From Eubacteriales bacterium (GTDB lineage: Bacteria > Bacillota > Clostridia > Oscillospirales > UMGS1783): 58,200 nucleotides of DNA. The position numbers and the translations under genes are program-made. Where the stretch lies: NCBI GenBank assembly GCA_045631845.1, contig JAZQVM010000067.1, forward strand, positions 1 through 58,200. Direction: 5' to 3'. Positions 4,574 through 4,745 of this stretch are shown here, piece by piece. The notes beneath the pieces are model-generated. The model made no database searches, had not been told where the DNA came from, and was given only the letters and a program-made list of their open reading frames with translations. Position 1 is the stretch's first letter. Each line of letters starts with the position of its first letter.

Positions 4574-4602
4574 TTGAATTTGCAGGTCAAATACTGTATA
4601 AT
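4574..4602 (+). promoter_or_regulatory. Sigma-70-type promoter for the tRNA-like RNA / HEPN operon
   Basis: TTGAAT (4574-4579), 17-nt spacer, TATAAT (4597-4602). Confidence 0.65.
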
Positions 4603-4630
4603 ATATGTGTTAACAATGTTTCTAAAATAT

Positions 4631-4722
4631 GCCCAAGTGGTGATTGGTAAAACGCCTACCTTTATGGTGATATTATCACTCTTAAAGTAGGAAGAACGGG
4701 TTCGATTCCCGTCTTGGGCCCA
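4631..4722 (+). tRNA. Non-canonical tRNA-like RNA with an extended anticodon arm (not a standard isoacceptor)
   Basis: Acceptor stem GCCCAAG / CTTGGGC, U8, GG in the D-loop position, 4-nt variable region, and T arm ACGGG-TTCGATT-CCCGT. The anticodon arm is replaced by a 37-nt imperfect hairpin (4655-4691), and D-stem pairing is poor. Confidence 0.55.
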
Positions 4723-4745
4723 TAATTATTTGTTAGGAAGAGAAT

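What the first reader, a model, noticed from the sequence alone, without database searches (positions are those of the whole stretch)
4574..4745. Promoter-driven non-canonical tRNA-like RNA with a 37-nt rod in place of the anticodon arm, fused as leader to a HEPN-type operon
4631-4722 has hallmark tRNA parts. These are a perfect 7-bp acceptor stem GCCCAAG (4631-4637) / CTTGGGC (4713-4719), U8, GG at the D-loop position (4646-4647), a 4-nt variable region AAGA, and a perfect T arm ACGGG-TTCGATT-CCCGT (4696-4712). A discriminator C followed by CA comes after the acceptor stem. Where a 17-nt anticodon arm belongs there is a 37-nt imperfect hairpin (4655-4691). It reads CCTAC/GTAGG, a bulged C, TTTA/TAAA, a small internal loop, GGTGAT/ATCACT and an apical ATT, about 15 bp in total. 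D-stem pairing is poor, and the whole element is about 90 nt. It is not at the edge of the AT-rich island. It has its own TTGAAT-17-TATAAT promoter about 28 nt upstream. It runs with no terminator into the RBS and ATG (4746) of two genes carrying RNxxxH HEPN-type motifs, 24 nt downstream. HEPN nucleases of the PrrC/RloC/Abi type target tRNA anticodon loops. A co-transcribed tRNA mimic lacking a normal anticodon loop could therefore be an RNA antitoxin or decoy, a sensor scaffold, or simply an RNase P/Z processing signal. Two more speculative readings exist. Opening the apical helix gives a 7-nt loop ATATTAT, with a U33-like T, AUU, and a purine at 37. Notionally excising about 20 nt gives a CTTTAAA loop with a UUA (ochre-reading) anticodon.
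Basis: partly seen in the sequence, partly recalled or inferred. Interest (0 to 1): 0.88.

Follow-up and report, generated by a model that had tools for sequence, protein, structure and literature searches.

The report
tRNA-like RNA paired with unknown protein
A tRNA-shaped RNA whose anticodon loop is split by a capped hairpin always sits directly in front of one unannotated protein gene carrying a nuclease-type motif, across four bacterial phyla, which points to an undescribed two-part RNA-protein system, probably a toxin-antitoxin or anti-phage module.

Summary
Window 4631-4722 (+) is a tRNA-shaped RNA (Rfam tRNA 42.6 bits; ARAGORN 'tRNA-???'). Its anticodon loop is replaced by a 7x7-nt internal loop (5' CUUYAUN / 3' YNUYAAA) capped by a variable hairpin.

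It is not a pseudogene or att remnant. All 36 loci with upstream DNA that encode a relative of the downstream protein A (4746-5642) have this RNA 15-70 nt ahead of the start codon, same strand. They come from Bacillota, Actinomycetota, Chloroflexota and a Sinorhizobium plasmid, and A identity falls to 28%. Twenty-two of 25 base pairs show compensatory changes. The loop strands are almost invariant.

Protein A belongs to a family of at least 558 clusters at 50% identity. It is all-alpha with a conserved W-R-N-x3-H motif and has no Pfam, PADLOC, PDB or BFVD match. The HEPN label therefore rests on the motif only.

Gene B is clade-specific and occurs elsewhere without the RNA. The core is RNA plus A, often near defence genes.

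Best reading (about 0.4): a type III-like RNA-toxin or abortive-infection pair. The most novel reading (about 0.1): a protein-spliced precursor of a stop-codon suppressor tRNA. No description was found in Rfam or the literature searched.

The parts
4574..4602 (+). Sigma-70-type promoter candidate (TTGAAT, 17-nt spacer, TATAAT) for the RNA plus gene A transcription unit
   Evidence: One search gives a 10/12 match. The same promoter is seen in the close relatives L001, L002, L011, L013 and L021. Different but well-placed -10/-35 boxes occur in distant loci, for example L047 TTGACA-16-TATAAT and L018 TGcTATAAT. Function is inferred.
4631..4722 (+). tRNA-like RNA: acceptor 4631-4637/4713-4719, D arm 4640-4653, T arm 4696-4712, variable region 4692-4695, CCA 4720-4722
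   Evidence: ARAGORN. Rfam RF00005 at 42.6 bits. The custom covariance model R1 scores 99 bits. Helices covary. Invariant tRNA tertiary nucleotides are G10, a D-loop G, G53 T54 T55 C56 A58 and C61.
4655..4691 (+). Extended anticodon arm: 5-bp stem 4655-4659/4687-4691; 5' loop strand CUUUAUG 4660-4666; capping hairpin 4667-4679 (GTGAT-ATT-ATCAC); 3' loop strand UCUUAAA 4680-4686
   Evidence: The loop strands are nearly invariant across 29 distinct sequences. The hairpin base covaries (helix 4).
4735..4742 (+). Ribosome-binding site AGGAAGAG of gene A
   Evidence: Read directly from the sequence. It lies 4-11 nt before the ATG at 4746.
4746..5642 (+). Gene A, 298 aa: all-alpha protein of an unannotated family with conserved W129-R130-N131-x3-H135; the obligate protein partner of the RNA
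   Evidence: at least 558 clusters; invariant N17 T22 W44 P46 Y75 H135 K183. AF2 pLDDT 90.5. No Pfam, PADLOC, NCBIfam, PDB or BFVD match.
5675..6685 (+). Gene B, 336 aa, with invariant R271-N272-x3-H276: an adjacent, clade-specific gene that is not part of the conserved core
   Evidence: It occurs without the RNA or A in L048-L052. No fold match.

Best explanation
The RNA and gene A form a self-contained two-component module that is transcribed from one promoter.

Shown:
- The RNA keeps everything that gives a tRNA its L-shape: a 7-bp acceptor stem, a T arm with GTTCRA, the D-loop GG and U8.
- In many Bacillota copies and in the Sinorhizobium plasmid copy an N-CCA or CCA tail is encoded.
- The anticodon loop is replaced by a nearly invariant 7x7 internal loop (5' C-U-U-Y-A-U-N / 3' Y-N-U-Y-A-A-A). 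A hairpin that varies freely in sequence and length closes it.
- The RNA is found upstream of every A homologue examined.

Inferred:
- The RNA is cut out of the leader by RNase P and by RNase Z or exonucleases, and accumulates as a stable species of about 90 nt.
- Its internal loop displays the two halves of a U34/A36-A37-A38 anticodon loop in a form that cannot decode. This loop is the specific docking or pseudo-substrate site for protein A.
- Protein A is a HEPN-like (R-N-x3-H) ribonuclease, probably aimed at tRNA anticodon loops or other RNA.
- In the resting cell the RNA keeps A occupied or inhibited, as a type III-like antitoxin or decoy.
- When transcription of the module stops, or the RNA is destroyed or displaced during phage infection or loss of the element, free A cleaves cellular RNA and arrests growth. 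That gives abortive infection or addiction.
For: Linkage:
- One strong R1 hit (34 of 35 at 62-99 bits; L035 is divergent at 36.9) lies directly 5' of A on the same strand in 35/35 sources with upstream DNA. Genuine tRNAs score only 36-42 bits.
- The RNA is also present on a Sinorhizobium plasmid at 31% A identity.
- The gap to the start codon is 15-69 nt, mostly 21-43 nt.
- Gene-caller N-terminal extensions in still more distant A proteins translate the T arm.

Structure:
- 92.8% of cells are paired against 69.5% in shuffles.
- 22 of 25 pairs carry compensatory changes. Slid controls give 33-49% paired.

Selection on the loop:
- 5' positions 1, 2, 3 and 5 and 3' positions 3, 5, 6 and 7 are invariant in 29 distinct sequences. 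The cap varies from 2 to 12 bp.
- L053, outside that set, has G at 3' position 6.
- In close relatives the flanks differ completely while the RNA stays 95-100% identical.

Protein:
- Large family with near-invariant W-R-N-x3-H.
- Confident all-alpha model.
- Weak HEPN hints only: HEPN_RiboL-PSP at E 0.28 in 2 of 32 members, and the HEPN toxin 7bxo_H at TMt 0.45, E 3.2.

Context:
- No third conserved gene among 136 flanking ORFs.
- Defence or TA genes are scattered nearby: GmrSD+Eco57I, SIR2+DUF87, PtuA/GajA-like ATPases, HNH, TIR, Fic/Phd, ApeA-HEPN and RES.
- The module sits in an AT-rich island with a Mob_Pre relaxase.

Known precedent, from established knowledge: RNA antitoxins encoded just upstream of endoribonuclease toxins (ToxIN), and ncRNA plus HEPN AbiF systems (PMC12373285, found).
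Against: - No experiment or expression data. Toxicity of A, RNA-A binding and processing of the RNA are all inferred.
- The HEPN fold is not confirmed. Foldseek finds nothing with E below 0.2 in PDB or BFVD.
- The module lacks the hallmarks of type III TA systems. There are no tandem RNA repeats, no terminator between RNA and toxin, and no ToxN or Abi_2 homology.
- tRNA-shaped RNAs are usually very stable, which sits badly with a labile antitoxin.
- L044 has an intact A but a degenerate anticodon-type stem and CUUGAU.
- The module is almost absent from phage records. Many neighbours are housekeeping genes, so the defence context is suggestive rather than statistically tested.
Confidence: 0.4

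Rival explanations
1. The RNA is a precursor of a real tRNA. The hairpin and its flanks form a protein-dependent intervening sequence. Protein A, acting as a dimeric HEPN-type endonuclease that leaves 2',3'-cyclic phosphate and 5'-OH ends, cuts after the U-Y-A triplet on each strand of the pseudo-symmetric 7x7 loop. A host ligase such as RtcB joins the halves. The product has a canonical 7-nt loop C-U-U-Y-A-A-A, making it an ochre (UUA) or opal (UCA) suppressor tRNA that causes stop-codon read-through, as a switch or as an abortive-infection effector.
For: - Both loop strands carry U-Y-A at positions 3-5. Joining after them gives exactly CUUYAAA, with U33 and the A36-A37-A38 context typical of tRNAs that read UNN codons (the context rule is from established knowledge).
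- The middle 'anticodon' base is U in 20, C in 8 and G in 1 of 29 sequences. It is never A. The two common forms are therefore the ones complementary to stop codons.
- ARAGORN itself reports tRNA-Stop (tta) for L019, L020 and L023.
- All tRNA tertiary nucleotides are kept, and an N-CCA or CCA tail is encoded in many Bacillota copies and in the Sinorhizobium plasmid copy. This suggests the acceptor end matters.
- Precedent for HEPN-mediated splicing, from established knowledge: Ire1 with HAC1/XBP1.
Against: - No bulge-helix-bulge can form, because both loop strands are pyrimidine-rich plus A.
- No RNA ligase or EndA-like gene appeared among the most frequent families in 136 flanking ORFs. Only the top 25 families were listed.
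- The discriminator (A, C or G) and the acceptor pairs vary freely, so no common aminoacylation identity is evident.
- The D stem is degenerate in the window clade.
- L044 would give a sense Ser (UGA) anticodon.
- Protein-only tRNA splicing is not known in Bacteria (my knowledge).
- The U/C alternation may be simple drift at one tolerated position.
Confidence: 0.12
2. The tRNA-like element acts only in cis, as a leader of the A mRNA. It could be an RNase P/Z processing signal that sets the mRNA 5' end and stability. It could also be an autoregulatory operator, where A (a tRNA-binding protein) binds its own leader by molecular mimicry and represses its own translation. The RNA would have no separate trans function.
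For: - The RNA always lies within 15-69 nt of the start codon, with no terminator in between.
- RNA and gene share one promoter.
- Precedents, from established knowledge: the thrS operator mimics the tRNA-Thr anticodon arm; tRNA-mRNA co-transcripts such as the E. coli tufB operon; mascRNA-type processing.
Against: - A mere processing signal would not need a nearly invariant 14-nt internal loop maintained across four phyla.
- A full L-shape with the T-loop/D-loop tertiary set and an encoded CCA is more than an operator needs.
- Once RNase P and RNase Z act, the RNA is physically separated from the mRNA, so lasting cis control is unlikely.
Confidence: 0.2
3. The RNA is a sensor or bait rather than an inhibitor. 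It would be a tRNA look-alike that a phage factor (tRNA ligase or kinase, anticodon-nuclease inhibitor, tRNA-modifying enzyme or phage nuclease) binds, modifies or cleaves, and that change switches A on. Alternatively it is an adaptor that carries A to tRNA-binding machinery such as the ribosome.
For: - The structural evidence is the same as for the main explanation.
- Defence-island neighbours.
- tRNA-targeting and tRNA-repair conflicts between phages and hosts are well documented (PMC10264068 and PMC11555353, found).
Against: - No evidence distinguishes this from the antitoxin model.
- An anticodon arm lengthened by about 10-20 bp is unlikely to fit ribosomal tRNA sites (inference).
Confidence: 0.12
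4. The element is a decayed tRNA pseudogene or the remnant of a tRNA integration (att) site, with no function of its own.
For: - It lies in a horizontally acquired AT-rich island.
- Genuine tRNA-Arg(CCT) genes are near the module in L009 and L020.
Against: - Compensatory changes occur in all five helices.
- Linkage to A is strict across four phyla down to 28% protein identity.
- The loop strands are invariant.
- The element is internal to the island and has its own promoter.
- Flanks diverge while the RNA is conserved.
Confidence: 0.01

Closest known systems
Type III toxin-antitoxin / abortive-infection systems (ToxIN, CptIN, TenpIN) and ncRNA plus HEPN AbiF systems
   Same: A small structured RNA gene lies immediately upstream of, and is co-transcribed with, a putative ribonuclease gene. 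The module has two components, is mobile, and is often found in defence islands. AbiF also combines a HEPN-type protein with a conserved upstream ncRNA (PMC12373285).
   Different: - The RNA is a single tRNA-shaped molecule, not tandem repeats.
- There is no terminator between the RNA and the gene.
- A has no ToxN/AbiQ or Abi_2 homology.
- Maturation is expected to use host tRNA-processing enzymes rather than the toxin itself (inference).
Bacterial Y RNA-like YrlA with Rsr/Ro60
   Same: Both are non-coding RNAs that mimic the tRNA acceptor, T and D core, with the anticodon arm replaced by a protein-binding helix (my knowledge of YrlA).
   Different: - No Rfam Y RNA or YrlA match.
- No Ro60/TROVE, RtcB or RtcR genes were found next to it.
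- In YrlA the RNA ends lie on the protein-binding stem. Here the ends are at a normal acceptor stem.
- The protein partner is unrelated.
Intron-containing pre-tRNAs (archaeal/eukaryal BHB introns) and Ire1-HAC1/XBP1 unconventional splicing
   Same: There is an intervening, self-folding segment inside the anticodon loop of an otherwise canonical tRNA. The loop is pseudo-symmetric and could be cut twice by a dimeric nuclease. HEPN-type (KEN) nucleases do carry out splicing in the Ire1 system.
   Different: - No bulge-helix-bulge geometry is possible.
- The host is bacterial.
- The insertion falls at 36/37 rather than 37/38.
- No ligase or EndA is linked to the module.
- No evidence of splicing.
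tRNA-mimicking mRNA leaders and tRNA-mRNA co-transcripts (thrS operator, tufB operon, mascRNA-type processing)
   Same: A tRNA-like fold lies in the 5' part of a transcript that also encodes a protein.
   Different: Here the mimic is a complete cloverleaf with a dedicated, sequence-invariant internal loop. It co-evolves with one specific unannotated protein family across phyla.
Anticodon nucleases and HEPN defence proteins (PrrC, RloC, ApeA, Cas13 collateral tRNA cleavage)
   Same: A conserved R-N-x3-H motif, a defence-island context, and an RNA partner that displays anticodon-loop nucleotides (U33-U34 ... A36-A37-A38).
   Different: - No sequence or fold match to any of these proteins.
- None of them is known to be encoded together with a tRNA-like RNA (my knowledge, and literature searches).

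Membership tests
Canonical tRNA (Rfam RF00005) | Cloverleaf with 7-bp acceptor, D arm, T arm and the conserved tertiary nucleotides (U8, G18/G19, G53-T54-T55-C56, A58) | tested here: met
   The D stem is weak (2 of 4 pairs) in the window clade and has 3-4 pairs elsewhere.
Canonical tRNA (Rfam RF00005) | Score above the curated gathering threshold | tested here: met
   42.6 bits against 29. Relatives score 34.5-54.2 bits.
Canonical tRNA (Rfam RF00005) | 7-nt anticodon loop with an assignable anticodon and isotype | tested here: not met
   A 23-nt insertion in the window and up to 45 nt elsewhere. ARAGORN calls are inconsistent: ???, Stop(tta), Glu, Met, Val, Ser and Asp.
Intron-containing tRNA (BHB type) | Bulge-helix-bulge motif: two 3-nt bulges separated by a 4-bp helix at the exon-intron junctions | tested here: not met
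   The loop strands CUUYAUN and YNUYAAA cannot form the 4-bp central helix in the BHB register.
Intron-containing tRNA (BHB type) | Splicing endonuclease and RNA ligase available or linked | tested here: inconclusive
   Neither appeared among the 25 most frequent families in 136 flanking ORFs. Host genomes were not searched.
Bacterial tRNA group I intron | Self-splicing intron of about 200 nt or more that matches Intron_gpI | tested here: not met
   The insertion is only 10-37 nt plus loop strands. There is no Rfam intron hit.
Type III toxin-antitoxin (ToxIN-like) | RNA gene directly upstream of the toxin gene, on the same strand and in the same transcription unit | tested here: met
Type III toxin-antitoxin (ToxIN-like) | Antitoxin made of tandem direct repeats that the toxin processes | tested here: not met
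   No tandem repeats. There is one RNA copy per locus.
Type III toxin-antitoxin (ToxIN-like) | Toxin of the ToxN/AbiQ/CptN fold, or Abi_2 for AbiF | tested here: not met
   No Pfam, PADLOC or NCBIfam hit. No fold match.
Type III toxin-antitoxin (ToxIN-like) | The protein is toxic and is neutralised by direct RNA binding | not testable with these tools
   Needs expression and binding experiments.
HEPN superfamily | Conserved R-x4-6-H motif with a polar residue after R | tested here: met
   In A, W129-R130-N131 are at least 90% conserved and H135 is invariant across 51 diverse members. In B, R271-N272-x3-H276 is invariant.
HEPN superfamily | HEPN helical-bundle fold, or a match to a HEPN-clan profile | tested here: inconclusive
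   The models are confident (pLDDT 90.5 and 85.6), A all-alpha and B mostly helical, but have no significant Foldseek hit. There are only weak hints: HEPN_RiboL-PSP at E 0.28 and 7bxo_H at E 3.2.
HEPN superfamily | Metal-independent RNase activity | not testable with these tools
   Needs biochemistry.
YrlA / Y RNA with Ro60 (Rsr) | Match to the Y RNA or YrlA model, and an adjacent rsr (TROVE) gene | tested here: not met
   No such Rfam hit even at E up to 10. No TROVE domain among the neighbours.
tmRNA / tRNA-Sec | tmRNA: a tag reading frame and pseudoknots. tRNA-Sec: an 8-bp acceptor stem and a long variable arm. | tested here: not met
   ARAGORN finds no tmRNA. Only a 12.8-bit fragment matches tmRNA_permuted. 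The acceptor has 7 bp and the variable region has 4 nt.

The most novel reading that the evidence does not exclude
Bacteria carry a protein-dependent tRNA splicing system. The hairpin-interrupted RNA would be a dormant precursor. Protein A, a dimeric HEPN-like endonuclease, cuts it after the U-Y-A triplet on both strands of the symmetric loop. After ligation the product has the loop CUUYAAA, giving an ochre or opal suppressor tRNA. Such an inducible stop-codon read-through device could serve as an abortive-infection effector or a translational switch.
Probability: 0.1. Interest if true: 0.97.

Novelty: new variant of a known kind. Interest (0 to 1): 0.8.

Why it matters
If the RNA and protein A work together as inferred, this is an unrecognised and widespread two-component RNA-protein system. 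The protein family has at least 558 clusters at 50% identity, spread over four phyla.

- It would be the first case of a complete tRNA mimic serving as the dedicated RNA partner of a nuclease-like protein. That extends the logic of type III toxin-antitoxin and AbiF systems to tRNA-shaped RNAs.
- The invariant 7x7 loop gives a defined RNA-protein recognition problem that can be tested directly.
- The module adds a candidate to the growing set of tRNA-centred conflicts between bacteria and phages.
- It has a practical consequence for annotation. tRNA finders give these loci contradictory calls (undetermined, 'Stop', or various isotypes), and gene callers translate through them. tRNA and suppressor-tRNA censuses in metagenomes are therefore contaminated by this element.
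- If the splicing reading were true, it would overturn the view that bacteria lack protein-catalysed tRNA splicing.

Tried and rejected
- **BHB intron.** Rejected, because the loop strands cannot form the central helix.
- **Group I intron, tmRNA, tRNA-Sec, Y RNA/YrlA.** No Rfam or ARAGORN support.
- **Att-site remnant or pseudogene.** Rejected on covariation and strict linkage.
- **Gene B as a second obligate partner.** Rejected. It is absent from distant A loci. In Clostridium loci it occurs without the RNA or A, behind unrelated proteins.
- **TIR and Fpg genes as part of the system.** Rejected, because they occur only in the window.
- **Homology between A, B and the L023 RNTAVH protein.** None found by hhalign.
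- **DNA similarity to plasmid or phage records.** None.
- **tblastn of A.** No phage record. One plasmid was found.
- **Sequence and fold searches for A and B** against Pfam, NCBIfam, PADLOC, PHROGs, PDB and BFVD. Nothing significant.
- **A conserved third gene.** None among 136 flanking ORFs.
- **Eight literature searches** for a tRNA-like RNA coupled to HEPN, Abi or antitoxin systems. No description found.
- **The second odd tRNA-like element in L023** (4123-4221, 31.9 bits with R1). Rfam tRNA does not support it at E up to 1, so it is left as an aside.
- **Isotype ancestry of the RNA body.** Not tested, because no tRNA reference set was available.
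Full report
**1. The observation**

- The acceptor stem is a perfect 7 bp: GCCCAAG paired with CTTGGGC.
- T8 and the D-loop GG are present.
- A 5-bp anticodon-type stem (CCTAC/GTAGG) flanks 27 intervening nucleotides.
- The variable region is the 4-nt AAGA.
- The T arm is perfect (ACGGG-TTCGATT-CCCGT), and CCA follows.

ARAGORN reports 'tRNA-???'. Rfam's tRNA model scores 42.6 bits against a gathering score of 29 and places a 23-nt insertion in the anticodon loop. No other Rfam family matches, even at E up to 10. 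RNAfold reproduces the rod.

A TTGAAT-17-TATAAT match lies at 4574-4602, and no real terminator precedes the ATG at 4746.

**2. The surroundings**

The element lies inside an AT-rich stretch (about 31-40% GC, roughly 1-9 kb) of a window that is otherwise about 50-55% GC.
- Upstream are a Mob_Pre relaxase fragment, a DUF2806 protein and an AMP-binding enzyme.
- Downstream are A (298 aa), B (336 aa), a CAP12/Pycsar-type TIR protein, an Fpg/Nei-like glycosylase and a radical-SAM/SPASM protein.
- A contains WRNNSVH and B contains FRNCLAH.
- Neither A nor B matches Pfam, PADLOC, NCBIfam or PHROGs.

**3. Linkage of the RNA to protein A**

*Size of the protein family*
- A has 142 word-index homologues, all named hypothetical.
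- An exhaustive profile search finds 558 clusters at 50% identity with E up to 1e-3, and 440 with E up to 1e-10. All are about 290 aa.

*Loci examined.* I fetched loci from several sources:
- species-representative genomes;
- metagenomes;
- viral contigs;
- exact-protein look-ups;
- one annotated plasmid.

*Result*
- A covariance model built from 24 distinct RNA sequences (R1) was run on 36 sources.
- It gives exactly one strong hit per source that has upstream DNA: 34 hits at 62-99 bits, plus the divergent L035 at 36.9 bits.
- Each hit is on the same strand as A and directly 5' of it.
- Genuine tRNAs in the same loci score 36-42 bits.
- The Sinorhizobium americanum plasmid copy scores 67.7 bits.
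- The gap between the RNA and A's start codon is 15-69 nt, mostly 21-43 nt.

*Taxonomic spread.* The hosts are Oscillospiraceae, Acutalibacteraceae, Ruminococcus and other Clostridia, Solirubrobacterales, Leifsonia and other Actinomycetota, a Chloroflexia MAG, and an alphaproteobacterial plasmid. A identity falls as low as 28%.

*Further support*
- In still more distant family members, gene callers produced N-terminal extensions that are translations of the T arm, such as GSIPT and FES.
- Among close relatives the promoter-side flanks differ completely while the RNA stays 95-100% identical.

Together these results exclude a pseudogene or an att remnant.

**4. Anatomy of the RNA**

I specified five helices on the 24-sequence alignment (A3).
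- 92.8% of cells form standard pairs, against 69.5% in shuffles and 33-49% when the partners are slid.
- 22 of 25 pairs show compensatory double changes.
- All five helices covary: acceptor, D, anticodon-type stem, base of the extra hairpin, and T.
- The universal tRNA tertiary nucleotides are invariant or nearly so: G10, a D-loop G, G53, T54, T55, C56, A58 and C61 are invariant, and U8 and A21 are at least 90% conserved.

The part that replaces the anticodon loop has a fixed design.
- After the 5-bp stem comes the 5' strand C-U-U-Y-A-U-N.
- Then comes a hairpin of 2-12 bp with free sequence and loop.
- Then comes the 3' strand Y-N-U-Y-A-A-A, and the stem closes.
- In 29 distinct sequences, 5' positions 1, 2, 3 and 5 and 3' positions 3, 5, 6 and 7 never change.
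- 5' position 4 is U (20), C (8) or G (1).
- L053, outside that set, has G at 3' position 6 (UCUCAGA).

Read in register, the two strands would give C.A, U-A, U-A, a position that is never Watson-Crick (Y.Y, C.A or G.A), A-U, then mostly mismatches. The element is therefore either an irregular helix or an open 7x7 loop. Invariance means covariation cannot decide between the two. A bulge-helix-bulge cannot form.

The 3' tail follows host convention.
- N-CCA is encoded in L001, L002, L025, L034, L044, L046 and L053.
- CCA lies directly after the stem throughout the window clade.
- No CCA is encoded in the Actinomycetota copies.

**5. The proteins**

*Protein A*
- The AF2 model is confident and all-alpha (pLDDT 90.5).
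- Foldseek finds nothing significant in PDB or BFVD. The only HEPN-related row is the HEPN toxin 7bxo_H, with TMt 0.45 and E 3.2.
- Two of 32 members touch HEPN_RiboL-PSP at E 0.28.
- Across 51 diverse members the invariant residues are N17, T22, W44, P46, Y75, H135 and K183. W129, R130 and N131 are at least 90% conserved.
- The HEPN assignment is therefore a motif-level inference and not a demonstrated membership.

*Protein B*
- It has invariant R271-N272-x3-H276 and no fold match.
- It follows A only in A's close relatives, at 72% identity or more. In L001-L004 a 609-aa ORF separates the two.
- B homologues at about 65% identity sit in Clostridium loci behind unrelated 243-266-aa proteins, with no A and no RNA.
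- B is not part of the conserved core.

*Other genes*
- The TIR and Fpg genes are unique to the window.
- Among 136 ORFs flanking A in 22 loci, no family occurs more than three times. There is no third component.
- Defence or TA genes recur in the neighbourhoods:
  - GmrSD with Eco57I;
  - SIR2 with DUF87;
  - PtuA/GajA-like ATPases;
  - HNH;
  - TIR;
  - Fic with Phd;
  - ApeA-HEPN and RES.

**6. Mechanism**

*What is shown.* A tRNA-shaped RNA with a dedicated invariant internal loop is an obligate genomic partner of one protein family. That family carries a nuclease-type motif, and the pair forms a single transcription unit.

*What I infer as most likely (about 0.4)*
- Host tRNA-processing enzymes release the RNA.
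- Its loop presents the two halves of an anticodon loop (C32-U33-U34-N35-A36 and A37-A38) around a cap that blocks decoding.
- The loop binds A as a pseudo-substrate or inhibitor.
- Loss of the RNA frees A to cleave cellular RNA.
- That would make the module a type III-like toxin-antitoxin or abortive-infection system.

*Rivals*
- A cis-acting leader or autoregulatory operator (0.2).
- A sensor, bait or adaptor RNA (0.12).
- A spliced suppressor-tRNA precursor (0.12).
- A pseudogene or att remnant (0.01).

*The splicing reading.* It is attractive because cutting after U-Y-A on both strands would give the canonical loop CUUYAAA. The two common middle bases, U and C, make anticodons complementary to UAA and UGA. 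Against it:
- no ligase is linked to the module;
- no BHB can form;
- no common aminoacylation identity is evident;
- there is no precedent in Bacteria.

**7. Comparison with known systems and novelty**

- The module works most like type III TA systems and AbiF-ncRNA systems. It fails their defining features: tandem repeats, an internal terminator, and a ToxN or Abi_2 toxin.
- The RNA resembles YrlA in concept, with a tRNA core plus a protein-binding arm. It has a different topology, a different partner, and no Rfam match.
- It scores as a tRNA but fails the anticodon-loop criterion.
- I found no description in Rfam 15 or in eight full-text literature searches. That corpus is incomplete, so prior description cannot be excluded.
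- I rate it a new variant of a known kind (an RNA plus ribonuclease-like pair) with an unusual tRNA-mimic RNA. There is a small chance that it is something categorically new.

**8. Verdict**

The finding is real, conserved and unannotated, and its function is unknown but experimentally tractable. Interest is 0.8.

Noticed in passing
window 6799-8571: A CAP12/Pycsar-type TIR effector protein (331 aa, PADLOC TIR effector E 1e-46) is immediately followed by an Fpg/Nei-like DNA glycosylase (257 aa). No cyclase is nearby. The pair is absent from all related loci, so it looks like a separate defence cassette in the same island.
   Followed up: partly
window 8849-9676: A radical-SAM/SPASM protein with weak similarity to prokaryotic viperins (pVip, E 7e-14) sits at the GC-content boundary of the island.
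   Followed up: no
window 94-4335: The island's left part holds a Mob_Pre relaxase-like ORF, a DUF2806 protein and an AMP-binding enzyme divergent from the RNA. L002 also has an AMP-binding gene (30% identity) in the same relative position. GC is about 31-40% from roughly 1 to 9 kb, against 50-55% beyond.
   Followed up: partly
L023 3338-4850: There may be a second, different tRNA-like element at 4123-4221. Model R1 scores it 31.9 bits and Rfam tRNA gives no hit. Its anticodon arm is a long, nearly perfect rod (TTCATAA...TTATGAA). It lies between an unannotated 264-aa protein with RNTAVH and a GNAT acetyltransferase, just upstream of the RNA plus A module.
   Followed up: partly
L001 7068-8897 (also L002, L003, L004): A 609-aa ORF with no family match is inserted between A and B in four close relatives of the window.
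   Followed up: partly
L048-L052 (B homologues): The gene B family has more than 430 members. In Clostridium loci it follows unrelated upstream proteins of 243-266 aa. This suggests B is a module that pairs with variable partners or stands alone.
   Followed up: partly
window 4493-4690; proteins P0112, P0139, P0157, P0158, P0204: ORF finders and gene callers read through the RNA. This produces a spurious 65-aa ORF in the window, and N-terminal extensions on A homologues in public protein sets that translate the T arm (GSIPT, FES).
   Followed up: yes
L020 953-1027; L009 7836-7908: A genuine tRNA-Arg(CCT) gene lies within 0.2-2 kb of the module in two unrelated hosts. It may be the integration site of the islands that carry the module.
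   Followed up: no
L053 5417-8675 (Sinorhizobium americanum plasmid A): On the plasmid the module is followed by an ApeA-type HEPN defence protein (ApeA_NTD1 plus HEPN_Apea) and a RES-family protein.
   Followed up: partly
window 4698-4721: The terminator-like call here is the T arm plus the acceptor 3' strand followed by an AT-rich tail. It is an artefact of the simple scan and not a terminator.
   Followed up: yes
L032 4839-5871; L010 6001-6703: In two long-read assemblies A is split or fragmentary while the RNA is intact. This is either assembly indel error or decay of A with the RNA retained. The opposite pattern is approached only in L044, where A is intact and the RNA's anticodon-type stem is degenerate.
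   Followed up: no
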